A stretch of DNA of 64,000 bases from Escherichia phage vB_EcoM_CRJP21. The notes beneath the pieces are model-generated. The model did not search any database. It had not been told where the DNA came from and was given only the letters and a program-made list of their open reading frames with translations. Of this stretch, positions 119 through 21,410 are shown one piece after another (the first letter of the stretch is position 1; every line of letters starts with the position of its first letter). The stretch is from the sequence record OQ708376.1; one strand, written 5' to 3'. Both the position numbers and the translations under genes were made by a program.

Positions 119-454
<336 letters not shown>

Positions 455-455
455 A

Positions 456-638
456 ATGACACACGAAGAATGGATGTCCAAACAGCATAAAGAACATGAC
501 TGCTTTGGGAATGGCATTCGTCAGGTACATTATGATATATTAAGAGATGAAAATCTTTTCAGGTCATATGTTTTGGATACCAGAAAACCCTGGTTTATAT
601 GCGAACTGGCATTTAGAAAGTCAAATAATCAAAACTAA
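456..638 (+). CDS. small hypothetical protein, MTHEEWM family
   Basis: N-terminus MTHEEWM shared with 1127..1291 and 1288..1452; start trimmed from track ORF 438. Confidence 0.45.
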   Translation: MTHEEWMSKQHKEHDCFGNGIRQVHYDILRDENLFRSYVLDTRKPWFICELAFRKSNNQN

Positions 639-654
639 ACAAGGAATACAAAAA

Positions 655-873
655 ATGGAAACAACTTTATTAGAAGTTATTCAATCATTAAAACCTGAAG
701 ATGAGGTTCAAGTACTACTACATGGTTATCGTGTAAAAGGTACTGTGGTTTTAGTCAATGATACAACATTGGTTATTACAGAAACAAACCCATATGATAG
801 TAATCAACTTGCCAATATCCATATCGATATCACTGGAATTATTGGTGTCGGTGTATCTAAAACACTTGCATAA
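655..873 (+). CDS. hypothetical protein
   Basis: track ORF 547..873 trimmed to internal ATG with aaggaa SD. Confidence 0.4.
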   Translation: METTLLEVIQSLKPEDEVQVLLHGYRVKGTVVLVNDTTLVITETNPYDSNQLANIHIDITGIIGVGVSKTLA

Positions 874-906
874 ATCATTAATTCATTATATAATGGGACA
901 TAACAT

Positions 907-1022
<116 letters not shown>

Positions 1023-1026
1023 AATA

Positions 1027-1103
1027 CGGGGTATAGCACAATTGGATAGTGCAAGAGAATTCTAATCTCTAGGTTGGGGGTTCAAGTCCCTCTACCTCGG
1101 CCA
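1027..1103 (+). tRNA. tRNA-Arg (anticodon TCT)
   Basis: acceptor cggggta/tacctcg, T-arm ggggg-ttcaagt-ccctc, anticodon loop attctaa, CCA. Confidence 0.7.
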
Positions 1104-1126
1104 ATTTTAATTAAAGGTTAAAAACC

Positions 1127-1453
<327 letters not shown>

Positions 1454-1461
1454 AAAAAAAG

Positions 1462-1875
<414 letters not shown>

Positions 1876-1935
1876 CTAAATAATTCAGTACTGAGGATAT
1901 TAATATGTTTAAAGATGAACGTCCAGATTTGTAAA

Positions 1936-2066
<131 letters not shown>

Positions 2067-2069
2067 TAC

Positions 2070-2229
<160 letters not shown>

Positions 2230-2244
2230 CAATGCGAGGTATAA

Positions 2245-2502
<258 letters not shown>

Positions 2503-2510
2503 GAATTTAA

Positions 2511-2912
2511 ATGAAAAAGAATGACTTGATCAAAATGCTTCAAGAAATTGACGGCAATCCAGAGATTGTTATTTGGAATGGATACGTCGATGATTATATG
2601 AACATCGAAAAAGGCTTGACTAAAATCACTCTAGTCAAAGAAACCGAACAGTTTCTTCAGGGTGCATTAGAGCACGAATGGTGTGAACGTAACAATACAT
2701 TCGACATTCCAGAAGACCAACGAACCAAGATTGCAGAACGTGCTAAAGAACTGCATAAGAAACGCGAATACGATTTCCAGAACCCATATGTCACTGAAGA
2801 CGAATTCAATCGCTGGTACGGTAAAAAGAAATTGACAAAGTATGTCCTTTCACCTAAACTACGTGGTAAGACTTCACTTGGTGTATTCAACGCCGCAGAC
2901 TTAAACTACTAG
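2511..2912 (+). CDS. hypothetical protein (133 aa)
   Basis: ORF tiling with neighbours. Confidence 0.6.
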   Translation: MKKNDLIKMLQEIDGNPEIVIWNGYVDDYMNIEKGLTKITLVKETEQFLQGALEHEWCERNNTFDIPEDQRTKIAERAKELHKKREYDFQNPYVTEDEFNRWYGKKKLTKYVLSPKLRGKTSLGVFNAADLNY

Positions 2913-2921
2913 CGGGTATTA

Positions 2922-3286
<365 letters not shown>

Positions 3287-3287
3287 T

Positions 3288-3325
<38 letters not shown>

Positions 3326-3344
3326 AGAGGTACTTCGAGTATGC

Positions 3345-3471
<127 letters not shown>

Positions 3472-3531
3472 TACAACCGACAATGACGAAAGAACAGTTA
3501 TCAACATTTATCAACGCAGCATTAGATAAAA

Positions 3532-3563
<32 letters not shown>

Positions 3564-3615
3564 TACCAAGCAGCTTGAAGAACTTTGTAGTGCTGCACCT
3601 ATGCCGACTCTTGGC

Positions 3616-3716
<101 letters not shown>

Positions 3717-3728
3717 TATCTTACTTCT

Positions 3729-3818
<90 letters not shown>

Positions 3819-16059: not shown

Positions 16060-16090
16060 AAGGGTTGGCTTATGCCAACCTTTTTTTTAT
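16060..16090 (+). terminator. intrinsic terminator
   Basis: hairpin gggttggc-ttat-gccaacc followed by 8 T. Confidence 0.7.
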
Positions 16091-16109
16091 GGGATGAAGT
16101 AAAAGTTTG

Positions 16110-16650
16110 TGATATAATTATCTTGTACAATTCTGTTGGCATGATATTCATGTACCTGATCCACTCGAAAACGTAGAGGGCAGTTGAGCAGTCCGACAGT
16201 GCGAACAGCAAAAGAAACCCGTTAGATGTGGGCATAGTTTGAACCCCTCACGGCAATGCGGCTGTATAAAGAACCACGTTAGGATAGCTGGTGGTTCCTT
16301 GATAGACATATAAGGATAACACCTTACGAATTATCTAAGGGAGAGTTATCGAATTTTGTACAGGAAAGTTGCGTCCAAAATTTGAGTACTCACATTAAGT
16401 ATTTGATTGCATAGATACTTAATGAAGATACACTATGTTTAAAAGTGTAGACCGTCATATGAAACTGAAGTAGAGAGAAACAGGATGACCCGCTTTCGCA
16501 CTCGTTATGAGTAATCTTCAATGCAATAGCTCTGATACCATCAGCGTCAAATTTCCCTCCTTGTGGGGGGAAGAAAAATCCCTTCCTCAAATCCCGTCAA
16601 TATTAAAAGTCCTTGACAGTTATTAATCATTCGCGTAGAATACGTAGTAT
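16110..16650 (+). ncRNA. candidate non-coding RNA region (ORF-free, follows extended -10 promoter)
   Basis: TGaTATAAT at 16110-16118; about 540 bp with no credible ORF; GC-richer than surroundings. Confidence 0.25.
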
Positions 16651-16705
16651 TAGAAGCGAACAGACATCTCGAAGAGATGGATGATTAACCATTAAGGAAT
16701 ATCAA

Positions 16706-16915
16706 ATGAATTCAGTAATCTTTTTAGTAGTCGCTTTCTCTGTTAATTCCGGTGTACAAATAACCCCAATGAATTCCATGAATCAATGCATAGCAGTACG
16801 TGATAGTACATACGAACAAGTAAACAAAGATATTTGGATTACAGTTAGTAAAGAACAAATGTGGTGTTACAATAGTAATACTAACACAAAGCTTATTGTA
16901 GGACAAACTCAATGA
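16706..16915 (+). CDS. hypothetical secreted small protein
   Basis: ORF after TTGACA-N17-TAGAAT promoter at about 16614-16642; N-terminal hydrophobic. Confidence 0.55.
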   Translation: MNSVIFLVVAFSVNSGVQITPMNSMNQCIAVRDSTYEQVNKDIWITVSKEQMWCYNSNTNTKLIVGQTQ

Positions 16916-17142
16916 GTTATGGCGTTCGTTTTGAGATTCGTTCTATTGTCATCAATGCAGAGAAACAAGTATCGTTGGATGGTGATATACGTGAAATTTA
17001 TCTATCATGTATCCGTGCGAAATCTGAAGCAGATGCCTTAGTACAAATGTATAGTTTTAACTTTTCAAATGGATTCTATTTGGTACGAGTTATTGAAGTG
17101 AAAAAAGTACTTATTGGTTGTAGCATAGAAGGATTAATGTAA
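16912..17142 (+). CDS. hypothetical protein (76 aa)
   Basis: ATGA overlap. Confidence 0.5.
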   Translation: MSYGVRFEIRSIVINAEKQVSLDGDIREIYLSCIRAKSEADALVQMYSFNFSNGFYLVRVIEVKKVLIGCSIEGLM

Positions 17143-17143
17143 A

Positions 17144-17932
17144 ATGAGCACTATAGATGAACTGATTCGACGGAATTCAAAATATTACCAACCATCAGAA
17201 ATTGTAGGTAACATTACCAAATCAGAGTTTGGTCCAAATACTCGAAAACTCATTCATGTAATGTCACGTGATGGCTTTAAATGTGATTGTTGCGGTGAAT
17301 CTAATGTAGTATTCACTTTACACAAGCACAGTACTAAAGATCGTTATAAATTCAGACCTTATGTACTTAAAGGGAAACGCCTTGTACGCATGACGTTAGA
17401 CCATAATGTACTGGACTGTCTTCAGGGCGGTAATGATAAAGAGAACATGACTGCACTGTGTGAAGATTGTAACGCATTACGCCAGCATAAGTTTGCTGAA
17501 TACAGTGAGTTTAAACACTGGTATAATAACGCGGATCGTTCAATCGAGCCTGACGTTAACTACTGCTTCATTGAGTACATTAAGAATGCCAAAGATACAT
17601 ACATTCTTAAATCAATGTCACCTATTACCGTGTTTCCTGAGAACCTATTCACTACATTAAAGAATAGTTTTATTGTAGGTGATATTGATGCATTCAAGTA
17701 TTTTGACAAAGGTGCAAAACATTTTGAAATTCAATGTCTTAGTACTGCACTATGTGAACTCATTAAAATTTACATAAAAGAGTATTTGGGTATTGACAAT
17801 GTACGTGTACCAGAGTATACTTTTTCTATTGAATTCGATTGTGAATCAATCAAAGAGTTTGGAATTCTTTTCAATAAACAAATAGAACTTGCAATTCAAA
17901 ACGAAATCAAGTACTATACTACTAACATTTAA
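17144..17932 (+). CDS. HNH endonuclease (possible free-standing homing endonuclease)
   Basis: CDCCGE...LDHNVLDCLQGGNDKENMTALCEDCNALRQHK, an HNH-type motif. Confidence 0.65.
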   Translation: MSTIDELIRRNSKYYQPSEIVGNITKSEFGPNTRKLIHVMSRDGFKCDCCGESNVVFTLHKHSTKDRYKFRPYVLKGKRLVRMTLDHNVLDCLQGGNDKENMTALCEDCNALRQHKFAEYSEFKHWYNNADRSIEPDVNYCFIEYIKNAKDTYILKSMSPITVFPENLFTTLKNSFIVGDIDAFKYFDKGAKHFEIQCLSTALCELIKIYIKEYLGIDNVRVPEYTFSIEFDCESIKEFGILFNKQIELAIQNEIKYYTTNI

Positions 17933-17947
17933 TCAGAGGAAATTATC

Positions 17948-18130
17948 ATGCAAATTATCATTCTTATCGTTGGCATCATGCTGGGTGTTTACGGTCACTC
18001 CTGGATGAACGAGAAGTTTCCTAATACGCGTCCTGAGTATTGCAGTTCTAATGTATTCCAGAATGGTGAGAAACCAAAGGAAAGCATTGGTAAAAAGCTG
18101 GATAAAGTACTTGATGTGATCAATGAATAA
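17948..18130 (+). CDS. small membrane protein
   Basis: N-terminal TM MQIIILIVGIMLGVYG. Confidence 0.45.
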   Translation: MQIIILIVGIMLGVYGHSWMNEKFPNTRPEYCSSNVFQNGEKPKESIGKKLDKVLDVINE

Positions 18131-18341
18131 GGGCCATAAAATGTTTAAACCGAATTCCAATGTTGGTAAGAAAGTTCAATTACTTGAAGATGTATCCACC
18201 ATGAGTGGAATTTTCCCAAGAGGTCACATCATGACTATTATTGCCGAAACATCCCGTGGGTGGGATTTGGAAGATGCTGATGGTAATCGCATCCTTGAGG
18301 CTGGATTCTATGGTCATCGTGAATATAAAATCGTTGATTAA
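18123..18341 (+). CDS. hypothetical protein (72 aa)
   Basis: ORF. Confidence 0.5.
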   Translation: MNKGHKMFKPNSNVGKKVQLLEDVSTMSGIFPRGHIMTIIAETSRGWDLEDADGNRILEAGFYGHREYKIVD

Positions 18342-18437
18342 GGATACAACATGACTTTAGAGATTGTCTTTGGTATTGTTAGCTTAGTCGTCTGTGTGGG
18401 TTGGTTTGGGTATCTGATGATTTTTAGTGATTAATAC

Positions 18438-18465
18438 TTGACATAAGATATCAGTACTGTATAAT
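18438..18465 (+). promoter_or_regulatory. sigma70-like early promoter
   Basis: ttgaca-N16-tataat with CAGTACTG in spacer. Confidence 0.6.
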
Positions 18466-18495
18466 GTTTATATCAAACGAAATCCACTTTAACAA

Positions 18496-18789
18496 ATGAT
18501 AGGAAATATTATGTCTTTTTCTAAAGAAGAACGTGACCTTATTAAAAAAGCAATCTGGTTTTATGCTAATGAAGGGAAGTGCGATGAAGAAAAAGCACGT
18601 GAACTGTGTAATATCTTTGAGAAGAAACAAGATCTAAAAGTGTATCGTATCCGTGATTTGGATGAAGGGGATCGTATTGTCCTAGCTGAAACAAAAGAAG
18701 AAGCAGAACAAATCTTCACTGATAAAAACGAAAATCCACATTGGATGGAAGAAGTCTGTGATGTTAAAAAAGGTACTTATATCGATTGA
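18496..18789 (+). CDS. hypothetical protein (97 aa)
   Basis: ORF downstream of promoter. Confidence 0.6.
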   Translation: MIGNIMSFSKEERDLIKKAIWFYANEGKCDEEKARELCNIFEKKQDLKVYRIRDLDEGDRIVLAETKEEAEQIFTDKNENPHWMEEVCDVKKGTYID

Positions 18790-18908
18790 CAGTACTGAAT
18801 AATAGCAGTATTATGTTTTATATAAAAGGGAATGCAGTGAAAGGAAAGACAGCATAATCGTACTCGTCACTGCGTTCCCGCCCTTTTAAATTAAATGAGG
18901 AATTAACT

Positions 18909-19217
18909 ATGTTTCAAACTAACACTCAAGGTTTTGTAATCATCGATTTGAATCAAAACAGCGGTCATTGGATGAAACCTACTGACGCATGTATGCAGTT
19001 TGATTTCTTAGGTTACAAAATTAGTGTAAGTACTGGTGCTTCTGTACTGAGAGGTGGTTGTATCGTTGAACATCTGGTAACTGATCCAGAAGGTCGTGAG
19101 TATGAAATCGCAGGTTCAGTACAAGATGCCATTATGTTTGTATGTCAGCGTGAAATGAATGGTTCGAATTCAAATGCACTGACTCATGCTCTTTCTCAAG
19201 AAGTGGAGGTTCGTTAA
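18909..19217 (+). CDS. hypothetical protein (102 aa)
   Basis: ORF with SD gaggaa. Confidence 0.6.
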   Translation: MFQTNTQGFVIIDLNQNSGHWMKPTDACMQFDFLGYKISVSTGASVLRGGCIVEHLVTDPEGREYEIAGSVQDAIMFVCQREMNGSNSNALTHALSQEVEVR

Positions 19218-19462
19218 TGAAATACATTGTAGCAGTACTCGTCGCATTTCTACTCACTGCATGTGATGCTTCTACCAAAGAACGTACAAGTGATTTTGTT
19301 CTACCTGCTGAATTAAAAGAAGCAGGGTGTAAGATTTATCGTATGCAACAAGATGGTGCTGGTGCGACTTTATACACTGTGTACTGTCCTAATGCAAATA
19401 CAAGTACTGGATACACTAGCGGTAAAACACGAATCAACACTTCCGTAATTCATGGAGAATAA
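19217..19462 (+). CDS. putative lipoprotein
   Basis: signal peptide with lipobox LTAC. Confidence 0.6.
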   Translation: MKYIVAVLVAFLLTACDASTKERTSDFVLPAELKEAGCKIYRMQQDGAGATLYTVYCPNANTSTGYTSGKTRINTSVIHGE

Positions 19463-19464
19463 CA

Positions 19465-19833
19465 ATGAGCCTTGATACAACACGTGCAGCAGATTTATTA
19501 ACTCGTCTGAATGATGAAGAATATCTTGCTGAGATAAAGTACAAGCTTGACAAACTTGTTCGAAGTGCTGAAGTAATTGAAGTTGAAGGTCACTTACCGA
19601 TGGATCAATACCATAGGTTCAAGGAAGATATGGTTTATTATCCTAATGAAATTTGGATTGAGTGGCAACATTGGACTAACAAAACTCTTCGCATTGAAGG
19701 GTATTGTGTGAAGTATGAAAGTTCACCTGGTGATGTTACAAAAACTCTATCAATTTGGTGTACAAAAACAAATGAACTCGTTGAGGTGAATTTGAATTAT
19801 ATGAATGGATTCCGTTGGGGTGATGTTAAATGA
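19465..19833 (+). CDS. hypothetical protein (122 aa)
   Basis: ORF. Confidence 0.6.
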   Translation: MSLDTTRAADLLTRLNDEEYLAEIKYKLDKLVRSAEVIEVEGHLPMDQYHRFKEDMVYYPNEIWIEWQHWTNKTLRIEGYCVKYESSPGDVTKTLSIWCTKTNELVEVNLNYMNGFRWGDVK

Positions 19834-20105
19834 TTAAAAAACTCTTGACTGGAATCATTGTGTGCAGTACAATGTTTCTTACAGCATGTAATGATGACGG
19901 CAGGTTTAGTGCAAAAGACTTAGTTCGTCAGGATTGTACATTCACAGGTAAGTCTTTTATTAACGAGTATGAAATATGTACACAATCAGGTCGTATCTGT
20001 GGTGGTTGGGAAAAACGTCAGGAGCGATTGTATGTATATGAATGCCCTGGACATCACAACAAAGTACTAAGCACACACAAACTTGTTTATGATAAGGTTG
20101 AATAA
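19830..20105 (+). CDS. putative lipoprotein
   Basis: signal peptide with lipobox FLTAC. Confidence 0.6.
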   Translation: MIKKLLTGIIVCSTMFLTACNDDGRFSAKDLVRQDCTFTGKSFINEYEICTQSGRICGGWEKRQERLYVYECPGHHNKVLSTHKLVYDKVE

Positions 20106-20320
20106 TGACTACCAATGAAATGATGCAGGTTATTTGGGATAAAGGTTGTGATATTAAAATCACTAGTACTGATGTTCGTGTATTCAAAACTGAATATATG
20201 GAGTACTTGGACCTTGATACTTATAATAATATTGTATCAATTGAACACAAAGGTGCAGTACTGGAAACCATTGACGTAGTACTCAAGAAAGCTACCGACC
20301 TATTAGGAGTGGCAGTGTGA
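20105..20320 (+). CDS. hypothetical protein (71 aa)
   Basis: TAATG overlap. Confidence 0.5.
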   Translation: MTTNEMMQVIWDKGCDIKITSTDVRVFKTEYMEYLDLDTYNNIVSIEHKGAVLETIDVVLKKATDLLGVAV

Positions 20321-20416
20321 ATAACAAAGAGTGGGAAGATTACCGCAAGAAGTGCAGGGAGTTTGATAAAGAACTTACTGGTACAGTGAATGCAGTAATG
20401 TGGGTATCTGTAATTA

Positions 20417-20674
20417 TTGCAGTTCTTGCGTTGGGTGCTATTATTATTAATAAATTATTCTAAGGCGAATATCATGTTTACTTTATATCTCGCAGTAGTT
20501 CTCACCAATGGTGAAATCACTCGTACTATTGGTGAAGGTGTATATAAAACACCAGACCAGTGCTACTCTGCCACTCATTGGCCTCGCGATAGTGGGGATG
20601 AAACTCGCACTGAATTCAAATGCATGAAAGTAAAAGGTGATTTTGTTAACCTTAAGGTTATCGAGGCGAAATAA
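20417..20674 (+). CDS. hypothetical small secreted protein (true start possibly 20474)
   Basis: ORF; hydrophobic N-terminus. Confidence 0.45.
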   Translation: MQFLRWVLLLLINYSKANIMFTLYLAVVLTNGEITRTIGEGVYKTPDQCYSATHWPRDSGDETRTEFKCMKVKGDFVNLKVIEAK

Positions 20675-21192
20675 TGGATATTAATGAGTTGTTGAAATTA
20701 GTGTTTAATCGTGAACGCCGCGATACAAGACCAATTGAATATCAAGATGTGATACGCATTGAAACTGATTTCTGTTATGGTAAAACAACTCATGACCTTT
20801 TGAATCTCTCTGGAAAACGCTATGCTGATGTTTGTTTTTCAGAGAGAAGTGATGGTTCAGAAATAACGAGTACTGATATTGTTTGTTACGCACGCAGTGC
20901 TGATAAATCTTATGAAATAGAACTTATATATTCCCCTAGTTCTAAAACAAATCATCACCGCCATATTTTATATGATGTTTACACACCACCTGGTATTGCT
21001 GAATATTTTGTTATTGATTATAGTACTGAAGAAAATGTGTTTCAACAAAGTTTGATTCATAACTTTGAGGTGAATGATCCATTAGTACCAAAGTTGTTCA
21101 AACTACTTGACACCATCGATGTTGATTTTGAATTTGTTATGTGCATTAGAACTTCTTTATTCAATGAATTCATGGAACTTTTTAATATATGA
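20674..21192 (+). CDS. hypothetical protein (172 aa)
   Basis: ORF. Confidence 0.6.
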   Translation: MDINELLKLVFNRERRDTRPIEYQDVIRIETDFCYGKTTHDLLNLSGKRYADVCFSERSDGSEITSTDIVCYARSADKSYEIELIYSPSSKTNHHRHILYDVYTPPGIAEYFVIDYSTEENVFQQSLIHNFEVNDPLVPKLFKLLDTIDVDFEFVMCIRTSLFNEFMELFNI

Positions 21193-21410
21193 ATAGATAC
21201 TATGTTGTGTATGAACACGTCTCTGAATTTAATAACATACGCGGGTTTTCCAGAGTAGTCACCAAGATGGATGTATTCATTCGTGCTCTTAGTGAAGTAG
21301 ATGCACTGTTTAAATTGTTTGATGAAATTACAAAGTATAACACACCTAAAACACACCGCTATGTGGAAACTGTACATAGCATTATGCTAACTGAAAGTGA
21401 TGAGGAATGA
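21189..21410 (+). CDS. hypothetical protein (73 aa)
   Basis: ATGA overlap. Confidence 0.5.
   Translation: MNRYYVVYEHVSEFNNIRGFSRVVTKMDVFIRALSEVDALFKLFDEITKYNTPKTHRYVETVHSIMLTESDEE

What the first reader, a model, noticed from the sequence alone, without database searches (positions are those of the whole stretch)
17144..17932. Free-standing HNH endonuclease
The HNH motif (DH...GG...N...LCEDCN...H) sits in a 262-aa protein among small early genes. In T4-type phages such genes are usually mobile homing endonucleases (Mob-like) and mark recent insertion points.
Basis: partly seen in the sequence, partly recalled or inferred. Interest (0 to 1): 0.4.

Follow-up and report, generated by a model that had tools for sequence, protein, structure and literature searches.

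The report
Dispensable HNH nuclease gene, jumbo phage
This is a real, intact HNH-type DNA-cutting enzyme gene in a 121Q/PBECO4-like jumbo coliphage, already labelled as such in public records; a few relatives have lost it, but it is an old resident of a variable genome slot rather than a fresh insertion, so it is fairly ordinary.

Summary
The ORF (17144-17932, +, 262 aa) and its CxxC…DH…N…CxxCN motif are confirmed. The window is an Asteriusvirus jumbo phage (99.5% to SP27), not a T4-type phage. The protein belongs to a small, jumbo-phage-restricted two-part family: an N-terminal zinc-knuckle HNH domain plus an uncharacterised helical C-terminal module. GenBank already annotates it "HNH endonuclease" (121Q gp170). 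It is not related to T4 Mob proteins beyond the catalytic motif.

The presence/absence test gives a mixed answer. About 30 relatives carry the gene at this exact position. Its divergence (98/96/80/59% aa) tracks that of its neighbours, and the nuclease domain is under strong purifying selection (dN/dS ~0.03). Four records lack it together with the upstream 76-aa ORF, and phage A4 has a clean in-frame deletion of the nuclease domain. EC22.5-2 is ~100% identical to the window except for a ~1.3-kb patch (16704-18037) carrying the empty allele.

Every loss allele keeps a σ70-like promoter (17793-17821) that lies inside the gene's 3′ end. Losses therefore look secondary.

Verdict: a dispensable accessory nuclease; a homing-type role is plausible but unproven, and "recent insertion" is not supported. 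Low interest.

Side observation of higher interest: a ~430-nt covariation-supported structured RNA, absent from Rfam, at ~16170-16610.

The parts
16613..16641 (+). Sigma70-like promoter (TTGACA-N17-TAGAAT) upstream of the 69-aa/76-aa/HNH gene string; probable source of HNH transcription
   Evidence: 11/12 match; no terminator-like site between it and 17932; conserved in the empty-allele phage at the same relative position. Function inferred, not shown.
16706..16915 (+). Upstream 69-aa gene (PHROG 37707, unknown function); its allele type co-varies with presence or absence of the cassette
   Evidence: Alleles of the three empty phages are 97-100% identical to each other and 71-77% to every HNH-bearing allele.
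16912..17142 (+). 76-aa ORF (PHROG 28392, unknown function), start overlaps the stop of the 69-aa gene (ATGA); lost together with the HNH gene in the empty alleles, kept in A4
17144..17932 (+). HNH endonuclease gene, 262 aa (121Q gp170 orthologue; PHROG 35175)
17144..17533 (+). N-terminal zinc-knuckle HNH (beta-beta-alpha-metal) nuclease domain, residues 1-~130: C47/C50 (17282-17293), D86-H87 (17399-17404), N101 (17444-17446), C106/C109/N110 (17459-17473)
17669..17929 (+). C-terminal helical module (residues ~176-262), no known domain; two deeply diverged allele types swapped by intragenic recombination; the only part retained in phage A4
   Evidence: dS 1.2-1.5 here versus 0.3 in the N-domain for window vs WPEC5/BF17; A4 ORF = MST + residues ~180-264 of a WPEC5-type gene; no Pfam hit; helices 196-215 and 236-258 in the model, pLDDT 58-76.
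17793..17821 (+). Sigma70-like promoter (TTGACA-N17-TATACT) embedded in HNH codons ~217-226; probably drives the downstream 60-aa gene onward
   Evidence: Present at the same position in all HNH alleles, including the 59%-identical one and the A4 remnant, and retained as the spacer of all empty alleles. Sites of this strength: 27 on the + strand, 5 on the - strand, 2.4 +/- 1.4 in shuffles. Activity not shown.
17948..18130 (+). Downstream 60-aa gene (hydrophobic N-terminus); always directly follows the HNH gene or the empty spacer
16704..18037 (.). Patch that differs between the window and the otherwise ~100% identical phage EC22.5-2: cassette plus ~210 bp of left flank and ~100 bp of right flank
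   Evidence: Sliding identity and mismatch positions.

Best explanation
The ORF encodes an intact metal-dependent DNA endonuclease of the zinc-knuckle HNH class, fused to a helical C-terminal module that probably supplies DNA binding or target choice (inferred). It is the last gene of a short early transcription unit (69-aa, 76-aa, HNH) read from a host-type promoter at 16613. Its own 3' end carries the promoter for the genes that follow. The phage does not need the gene: several viable relatives lack it. The most likely role is a site-specific, selfish or competitive nuclease of the homing type. In mixed infections it would nick or cut a related genome lacking the gene, near this locus, and repair would copy the cassette and short flanks across. 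It is an old resident of a hypervariable slot next to the phage sigma-factor gene, not a new arrival. The HNH-less alleles are secondary deletions that had to keep the embedded promoter. Shown: gene, motif, family, selection, dispensability, recombination patch, conserved embedded promoter-like site. Inferred: nuclease activity, target, homing, promoter activity.
For: Intact and constrained nuclease: catalytic and zinc residues are invariant to 21% identity; dN/dS is 0.03 in the N-domain; the HNH core links to ~1800 HNH proteins; fold hits go to HNH domains. Two-domain build as in site-specific phage nucleases, with a rapidly diverging, recombining C-terminal module. Dispensable: 4 records lack it, and A4 lacks the nuclease domain through an in-frame deletion. 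Sits in an exchange patch: EC22.5-2 differs from the window only over 16704-18037, and the flank allele is tightly linked to cassette state. This is the pattern reported for phage nuclease genes at recombination boundaries (PMC10448857) and for MobE-driven co-conversion (PMC2790892). The family occupies another locus in Mimasvirus/Eneladusvirus/Munch-like phages, in regions holding further HNH genes. It is absent from the syntenic slot of RaK2. Like MobE, it depends on upstream transcription and contains an internal regulatory signal (PMC2790892). Old residence: same position and neighbour-like divergence in 121Q-, WPEC5- and ENA-type genomes. Empties derived: the spacer aligns with the intragenic promoter segment (36/45 columns, 0/200 shuffles).
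Against: No cleavage site, target or biased inheritance is known; nothing experimental exists for this family. The gene is near-fixed and single-copy in the genus, and its divergence tracks its neighbours; a purely selfish element is expected to decay after fixation, yet selection on it is strong. The one recent exchange seen (EC22.5-2) most parsimoniously replaced an HNH-bearing allele with an empty one, the opposite of homing drive. Neighbouring non-nuclease genes also show presence/absence in this region, so the polymorphism is not specific to the nuclease. Neighbours are small accessory genes rather than the essential genes near which homing endonuclease genes usually cluster (PMC10448857). 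Part of the spacer/intragenic promoter similarity reflects a shared promoter consensus. The structure model is only moderate (pLDDT 67), and the C-terminal module has no recognisable DNA-binding fold.
Confidence: 0.5

Rival explanations
1. A non-mobile accessory nuclease kept because it benefits the phage, for example by degrading host or competitor DNA early in infection, or by stimulating recombination or amplification that helps evade host defence. Presence/absence then simply reflects ordinary gene flux in a plastic early region.
For: Strong purifying selection despite near-fixation; long syntenic residence with neighbour-like divergence; early-operon position behind a host-type promoter; other genes in the region also come and go. 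Phage homing-type nucleases are now known to give competitive or anti-defence benefits (PMC11620839; PMC13096335; 10.1101/2025.09.07.674715).
Against: Viable relatives lack it with no obvious replacement at the locus. The two-domain build with a fast-evolving second module suggests sequence-specific targeting rather than bulk degradation. No PADLOC or other defence/anti-defence family match. This reading overlaps with, rather than excludes, a homing-type mechanism.
Confidence: 0.3
2. One reading: a Mob-like homing endonuclease gene that recently inserted here and marks a fresh insertion point.
For: Free-standing HNH gene; presence/absence among close relatives; the cassette-sized difference between the window and the ~100% identical EC22.5-2.
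Against: Not related to MobE beyond the catalytic motif. Present at the same site in three deeply diverged allele classes (98/80/59% aa) with neighbour-like divergence. The empty alleles form one allele lineage that retains a segment of the HNH gene's 3' region. EC22.5-2 is nested in an otherwise HNH-bearing clade, so its state is derived.
Confidence: 0.07
3. A housekeeping HNH: a packaging accessory of terminase (HK97 gp74-like) or a junction-resolving enzyme (T4 endonuclease VII-like).
For: Same zinc-knuckle HNH class. Closest solved sequence and fold hit is the small Gme HNH nicking endonuclease 4h9d, but not significantly (E 0.5-0.6). A jumbo-phage paper assumes HNH and endonuclease VII genes serve packaging (PMC7760394). 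Weak PHROG endonuclease VII hit (E 0.068).
Against: Dispensable in four deposited phages and in A4. Lies among early genes next to a sigma factor, not next to terminase or structural genes. Carries an extra 130-residue module absent from those enzymes.
Confidence: 0.03
4. The protein has lost catalysis and acts as a DNA-binding regulator of the early region, or the ORF persists mainly as a carrier of the embedded promoter.
For: Own Pfam HNH score is sub-threshold; the last 'H' is not conserved; the embedded promoter is the one element every allele keeps.
Against: All catalytic and zinc ligands of an H-N-N site are invariant, and the nuclease domain is the most constrained part of the protein. 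The empty alleles show the promoter can be kept without the ORF.
Confidence: 0.05

Closest known systems
T4 MobE and other free-standing HNH homing endonucleases of T-even phages (PMC2790892, PMC2988022)
   Same: Free-standing HNH gene between phage genes; no promoter of its own immediately upstream, apparently co-transcribed with upstream genes; an internal regulatory signal; variable presence among relatives; associated with short tracts of exchanged flanking sequence.
   Different: No family relationship: only 21 residues of the catalytic motif align (hhalign probability 2.8%), and the PHROG differs (655 vs 35175). MobE lacks the two CxxC zinc knuckles. MobE flanks essential nrd genes, whereas this gene sits among small accessory genes. 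Its internal signal is a promoter-like site, not a terminator. No mobility or cleavage data exist here.
Zinc-knuckle HNH nucleases of Pfam PF01844 / PF14279 (McrA, Gme HNH nicking endonuclease 4h9d, Cas9/IscB HNH domains)
   Different: All hits are weak and cover only ~50-90 residues. There is no RuvC, no methyl-cytosine-reading domain and no terminase partner. The extra ~130-residue C-terminal module is specific to the jumbo-phage family.
PHROG 35175 / 25420 'HNH endonuclease' of Rak2-like jumbo phages (121Q gp170, GAP32_520, CBB gp444, Yen9-03 g524, Munch gp499)
   Same: This is the family the protein belongs to: full-length match to PHROG 35175 (E 8e-187) and a 190-residue match to 25420 (E 2e-31). 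About 30 representatives at 50% clustering share the two-part architecture.
   Different: The members outside Asteriusvirus are 286-344 aa, 21-30% identical, and sit at another locus upstream of an nrdC.10/thioredoxin-like gene. None has been studied experimentally.
Nuclease genes at boundaries of genetic exchange in phages (ICP1 and others; PMC10448857) and competitive homing endonucleases in jumbo phages (PhiPA3 gp210; PMC11620839)
   Same: Nuclease gene coinciding with a recombination patch and with domain swapping inside the gene; a possible role in competition between co-infecting relatives.
   Different: Those cases involve other nuclease families or intron-encoded enzymes next to essential genes, and they have experimental support. 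Here the link is correlative, and the one recent exchange seen removed the gene.

Membership tests
HNH (beta-beta-alpha-metal) nuclease superfamily, zinc-knuckle class (Pfam PF01844/PF14279) | General-base His preceded by Asp/His (D-H), conserved Asn, and a third metal/structural Asn or His | tested here: met
   D86-H87, N101 and N110 are present and invariant in 14 family members. H115 is not conserved.
HNH (beta-beta-alpha-metal) nuclease superfamily, zinc-knuckle class (Pfam PF01844/PF14279) | Two CxxC pairs bracketing the motif | tested here: met
   C47/C50 and C106/C109 are invariant.
HNH (beta-beta-alpha-metal) nuclease superfamily, zinc-knuckle class (Pfam PF01844/PF14279) | Scores above the Pfam gathering threshold | tested here: not met
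   15.7 bits against 21.4 for PF01844 and 15.1 against 27.5 for PF14279. Family members GAP32_520 (24.8) and Munch gp499 (24.5) pass PF01844. All ten representative-search hits sampled match HNH/HNH_5; seven pass at least one gathering score and three fall just short. Membership therefore rests on transitive evidence.
HNH (beta-beta-alpha-metal) nuclease superfamily, zinc-knuckle class (Pfam PF01844/PF14279) | Beta-beta-alpha-metal fold | tested here: inconclusive
Free-standing homing endonuclease gene | Sporadic presence/absence among closely related genomes at one locus | tested here: met
   Absent in 4 records and partly deleted in A4, present in ~30. Caveat: neighbouring non-nuclease genes also vary.
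Free-standing homing endonuclease gene | Tract of co-converted flanking sequence around the gene | tested here: inconclusive
   A discrete patch 16704-18037 distinguishes the window from EC22.5-2, and the flank alleles are linked to cassette state. However, the inferred direction is replacement by the empty allele.
Free-standing homing endonuclease gene | Gene more similar between genomes than its flanks are (recent horizontal spread) | tested here: not met
   HNH identity of 98/96/80/59% is in the range of its neighbours in the same genomes.
Free-standing homing endonuclease gene | Enzyme cuts the gene-less allele near the insertion site, and its own genome is immune | not testable with these tools
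   Needs cleavage assays or in vivo break mapping.
Free-standing homing endonuclease gene | Over-representation of the gene in progeny of mixed infections, dependent on the catalytic site | not testable with these tools
   Needs phage crosses.
T4 Mob family (MobA-E) | Sequence relationship to Mob proteins | tested here: not met
   hhalign of the family profile against T4 MobE gives probability 2.8% over 21 columns. MobE is in PHROG 655, which is not among the 25 PHROGs hit by the window protein.
RNA-guided HNH nucleases (IscB/Cas9 type) | RuvC domain and full-length model match | tested here: not met
   NCBIfam guided_IscB scores 20 bits against a cutoff of 175, over residues 78-127 only. The protein is 262 aa with no RuvC.
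RNA-guided HNH nucleases (IscB/Cas9 type) | Obligate linkage of the nuclease gene with its structured RNA | tested here: not met
   The upstream structured RNA is kept at >=92% identity in HNH-less phages. Its paralogue in 121Q has no HNH within 3.5 kb.
Terminase-associated packaging HNH (HK97 gp74 type) | Adjacent to terminase/portal genes and required for packaging | tested here: not met
   Neighbours are a sigma factor and small early ORFs. Natural deletions are viable.

The most novel reading that the evidence does not exclude
The HNH protein might use the large structured RNA encoded ~0.5 kb upstream (16170-16610) as a cofactor or guide. That would make it a minimal RNA-associated HNH nuclease. 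Its HNH domain's nearest weak matches are Cas9/IscB HNH domains, and omega-RNAs also lie just upstream of IscB genes. The evidence argues against this without strictly excluding it: the RNA is multi-copy, is retained unchanged in HNH-less phages, and its other copies are not next to HNH genes.
Probability: 0.02. Interest if true: 0.9.

Novelty: new member of a known kind. Interest (0 to 1): 0.25.

Why it matters
By itself it matters little: free-standing HNH genes are commonplace in large phages, and this one already carries that label in GenBank. Three things give it modest value. First, it defines a jumbo-phage-restricted two-domain HNH family with no experimental data and an unassigned C-terminal module. 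Second, nature has supplied near-isogenic pairs, such as 121Q-type phages against EC22.5-2 (~100% identical outside a 1.3-kb patch). These would make a clean test of homing, or of nuclease-driven competition, in jumbo coliphages. Third, it shows how a selfish or accessory gene can become hard to delete cleanly because a promoter for downstream genes is embedded in its coding sequence: three independent-looking loss alleles all preserve that segment. The adjacent unannotated structured RNA is probably the more valuable lead from this locus.

Tried and rejected
- **PDB sequence searches.** The direct search gave only a chance ribosomal L33 zinc-ribbon match. The profile search gave only 4h9d at E 0.49.
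- **Family libraries.** Pfam and PHROG scans of the C-terminal 132 or 87 residues, the 69-aa, 76-aa and 60-aa neighbours, and the A4 remnant found no functional family. PADLOC found nothing.
- **Apparently disrupted copies.** I considered the disrupted HNH copies in SD-1_S14 and CMSTMSU as evidence of decay. I rejected them because neighbouring genes are fragmented in the same records and one record is flagged UNVERIFIED.
- **L006 286-aa protein.** I tested whether the protein upstream of the HNH in the ENA contig is a second nuclease. It shows no HNH or other family match, but it is homologous to a RaK2 protein in the same slot.
- **IMG/VR scan.** Anchoring on the conserved 102-aa gene returned only 121Q itself and RaK2, so it did not widen the presence/absence sample much.
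- **Word-indexed protein search.** It found only close relatives; the alignment-based repeat added ten more.
- **Spacer versus intragenic promoter.** I checked whether the similarity is just a shared promoter consensus. Partly yes for the hexamers and the GTAC element, but the match downstream of the -10 is specific to this pair.
- **Paralogues.** None in the 64-kb window.
- **Literature.** No study of this gene or of the RNA was found.

Full report
**1. What is there**

The sequence reads …FKCDCCGES…(35 residues)…LDHNVLDCLQGGNDKENMTALCEDCNALRQH…. The start is preceded by AAGGA about 10 nt upstream. It follows the stop of a 76-aa ORF by one base. That ORF in turn overlaps the stop of a 69-aa ORF (ATGA). 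The three genes therefore form a tight string.

**2. Whose genome**

A 6-kb query around the gene is 99.5% identical to Escherichia phage SP27. It is 97-99% identical to E9.1, JP4, slurp01, phAPEC6, PBECO4, 121Q and others, all 310-386-kb genomes of the genus Asteriusvirus. These are Rak2-like jumbo myoviruses, not T4-type phages. In 121Q the orthologue is gp170, annotated "HNH endonuclease". Several other records carry the same label. The basic observation is therefore already in public annotation.

**3. Is it an HNH nuclease?**

- The protein's own Pfam scores are below threshold: HNH 15.7 bits against 21.4, HNH_5 15.1 against 27.5.
- It matches PHROG 35175 end to end (E 8e-187), plus some twenty further PHROGs annotated as HNH endonuclease.
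- In an alignment of 14 family members down to 21% identity, the invariant columns include C47, C49, C50, D86, H87, N101, C106, C109 and N110. Those are the two zinc knuckles and an H-N-N catalytic set.
- Distant members GAP32_520 and Munch gp499 pass Pfam's HNH threshold.
- An exhaustive profile search of 1.84 billion representatives finds 1819 proteins at E≤0.001. About 30 share the full two-part architecture; most of the rest match only the core. All ten sampled for Pfam hit its HNH/HNH_5 models, seven of them above a gathering score.

I conclude it is an HNH nuclease. Membership rests on motif invariance and transitive profile evidence rather than on its own Pfam score.

**4. Architecture and selection**

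Residues ~1-130 form the nuclease domain. Residues ~131-262 have no Pfam or PHROG function and are predicted helical. For the window against WPEC5/BF17:

| Region | dS | dN/dS |
|---|---|---|
| Nuclease domain | ~0.3 | 0.03 |
| Last 87 residues | 1.2-1.5 | ~0.3 |

. The gene is functional and constrained, and it is itself a recombinant: the C-terminal module exists in two old allele types. No paralogue exists in the 64-kb window.

**5.

tblastn finds the protein in about 30 Asteriusvirus records:

- about 20 at 95-99.6% identity;
- nine at about 80%;
- one copy at 93% that is cut by the end of its record (Ecwhy_1).

A 59%-identical version lies on a metagenomic contig. In all of these the gene sits at the same place, immediately upstream of the small 60-aa gene and downstream of the phage sigma-factor gene. 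Its divergence is in the range of its neighbours in the same genomes.

The exceptions are:

- **Empty alleles.** Four records (EC22.5-2 and the identical ECO103 4-12-1, Turkey5, JNE01) lack window 16885-17928. That is the 76-aa ORF plus the HNH gene. They have 86-94 bp in its place.
- **Phage A4.** It keeps the 76-aa homologue but has an 87-aa ORF reading MST|INAFKH…. This is an in-frame deletion of ~176 codons (the nuclease domain) from a WPEC5-type gene, at a TAT microhomology.
- **RaK2.** In this sister genus the same slot holds a 60-aa ORF and a 296-aa ORF and no HNH. The 296-aa protein is homologous to a 286-aa protein that precedes the HNH gene in the metagenomic contig.

The slot is hypervariable. 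Other small genes nearby also come and go.

**6. A recent exchange**

EC22.5-2 is ~100% identical to the window from 14500 to ~16700 and from ~18040 to 21000. Between these points it carries the empty allele. Its left flank (the whole 69-aa gene) is 92-100% identical to Turkey5 and only 56-87% to the window. Across ten genomes the 69-aa gene alleles fall into two groups by cassette state: the empties are 97-100% alike and 71-77% identical to all HNH-bearing alleles.

This points to one empty-allele lineage that moves between backbones by recombination. EC22.5-2 is nested in an otherwise HNH-bearing clade, so there the empty allele most probably replaced a full one. That is a recombination patch centred on a nuclease gene, as described for other phages (PMC10448857). 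Its direction, however, is the opposite of homing drive.

**7. An embedded promoter explains the shape of the losses**

A TTGACA-N17-TATACT site lies at 17793-17821, inside HNH codons ~217-226. The same hexamers, spacing and position occur in every HNH allele examined: 121Q, UE-S1, WPEC5, BF17, the 59% version and the A4 remnant. This holds even though it is the most divergent part of the protein.

The ~90-bp spacer of the empty alleles consists of this promoter plus ~20 bp downstream of it, followed by the ribosome-binding site of the 60-aa gene. The EC22.5-2 spacer aligns to window 17793-17836 in 36 of 45 columns (0 of 200 shuffles reach that score). Part of that match is a shared promoter consensus (…GTAC…TATAAT), but the match downstream of the −10 is specific to this pair.

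Sites of this strength number 27 on the + strand and 5 on the − strand, against 2.4 ± 1.4 in shuffles. They are therefore very likely real promoters.

My reading (inference) is that the gene's 3′ end doubles as the promoter for the downstream genes. Deletions that remove the nuclease must keep it. The empty and A4 alleles are therefore secondary losses, not uninvaded target sites.

**8. Relatives elsewhere**

In Mimasvirus (GAP32, CBB), Eneladusvirus (BF, Yen9-03/04, pEa_SNUABM) and Munch-like phages, homologues are 286-344 aa and 21-42% identical. They lie at a different locus, upstream of an nrdC.10/thioredoxin-like gene, in regions with further HNH genes. The family thus occupies more than one site across jumbo phages, and tblastn found it in only one Klebsiella phage record, so the RaK2-group Klebsiella phages appear to lack it.

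**9. Comparison with known systems**

- **T4 MobE.** It is the nearest functional analogue: free-standing HNH, promoterless and co-transcribed, an internal regulatory element, mobilises flanking DNA (PMC2790892). It is not a relative: hhalign aligns 21 residues at 2.8% probability, and it belongs to PHROG 655.
- **Packaging or resolvase roles.** These are disfavoured by dispensability and by genomic context.
- **IscB.** NCBIfam's only hit is the HNH domain of IscB at 20 bits against a cutoff of 175.
- **Defence systems.** PADLOC finds nothing.
- **Literature.** No paper deals with this gene beyond annotation.

**10. Verdict**

The gene is a real, constrained, dispensable HNH nuclease gene of a small uncharacterised jumbo-phage family. 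It lies in a recombination-active slot.

A homing-type or competitive role is the best single guess (about 0.5). A non-mobile beneficial nuclease is the main rival (about 0.3). "Mob-like" and "recent insertion" are not supported.

Novelty: a new member of a known kind. Interest is low (0.25). The main practical value is that near-isogenic natural pairs exist for a decisive cross.

**11. Side observation**

The 650-bp gap between the sigma-factor terminator (16060-16083) and the promoter at 16613 holds a ~430-nt element.

- It is ≥92% conserved across the genus, even where flanking genes are 50-80% identical.
- It is ~70% identical to unannotated DNA in several other jumbo-phage genera, at 3-5 places per genome.
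- An 8-sequence alignment gives 94 predicted pairs, 46 with changes on both sides. 95.6% of cells are paired, against 36-45% when partners are slid. None of 500 shuffles reaches any measure.
- G-U pairs indicate the + strand.
- Rfam 15 has no match, and there is no tRNA.
- It is retained in HNH-less phages. A paralogous copy in 121Q has no HNH nearby. Its adjacency to the HNH gene therefore appears coincidental.

This looks like an undescribed, multi-copy, large structured RNA of Rak2-like jumbo phages, and it deserves its own follow-up.

Noticed in passing
window ~16170-16610 (+ strand), within the gap 16084-16705: A ~430-nt non-coding element with strong covariation support for a complex secondary structure: 94 pairs, 46 with compensatory double changes, 95.6% paired versus 36-45% in slid controls, 0/500 shuffles. 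It is >=92% conserved across Asteriusvirus and ~70% identical to other jumbo-phage genera (CBB, GAP32, BF, Yen9-03, Munch, XbC2), at 3-5 places per genome, always in unannotated ~600-bp gaps. There is no Rfam 15 match and no tRNA. It is a likely undescribed large structured RNA.
   Followed up: partly
window 17793-17821; also L002 4419-4447, L007/L009/L006/L005 equivalents: A near-consensus sigma70-type promoter lies inside the coding sequence of the HNH gene. It is conserved in all allele types and is the only part of the gene retained in the deletion alleles. This is an example of a coding region constrained by an embedded promoter.
   Followed up: yes
window, + strand: 1463, 1941, 18438, 22752, 33339, 58515 (and 61456 on the - strand): A class of early promoters with an extended consensus TTGAC(A/T)-N8-10-(T/C)(C/A)AGTACTG-TATAAT. 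Promoter-like sites of >=11/12 are 27 on the + strand versus 5 on the - strand (shuffles 2.4 +/- 1.4).
   Followed up: partly
window 24525, 27951, 35108, 36390, 38348 (+ strand): A repeated ~40-nt unit GGGTTGACTTCGGTCAGCCC-TTTTTG-(C)TATAAT, in which a GC-rich hairpin (GGGTTGAC-TTCG-GTCAGCCC) overlaps the -35 hexamer of a consensus promoter. It looks like a combined terminator/promoter cassette between gene blocks.
   Followed up: no
window 16706-21200 compared with L001-L009: The early region downstream of the sigma-factor gene is a fine-grained mosaic. Adjacent small genes show very different identities between the same two phages (for example 102-aa gene 97% against 122-aa gene 45% for the window versus Turkey5), and several genes are present or absent independently.
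   Followed up: partly
L024 2490-3380 (RaK2) and L006 5086-5946 (ENA contig): A 286-296-aa protein of unknown function (24% identity, E 5e-15 between the two) occupies the slot upstream of the 60-aa gene homologue in RaK2. In the metagenomic relative it sits just upstream of the HNH gene. It has no Pfam match and only a marginal hit to an unknown-function PHROG (RaK2 copy, E 0.002).
   Followed up: partly
window 141-3808: A cluster of seven tRNA genes (Gly, Ser x2, Arg, Met, Asn, Thr) at the start of the window, as expected for this phage group.
   Followed up: no
L014 (SD-1_S14) and L015 (CMSTMSU): The HNH gene and its neighbours are split into fragments in these two records. One record is flagged UNVERIFIED and the other genome is 310 kb, well short of its relatives. 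This probably reflects assembly or sequencing errors rather than biology.
   Followed up: partly
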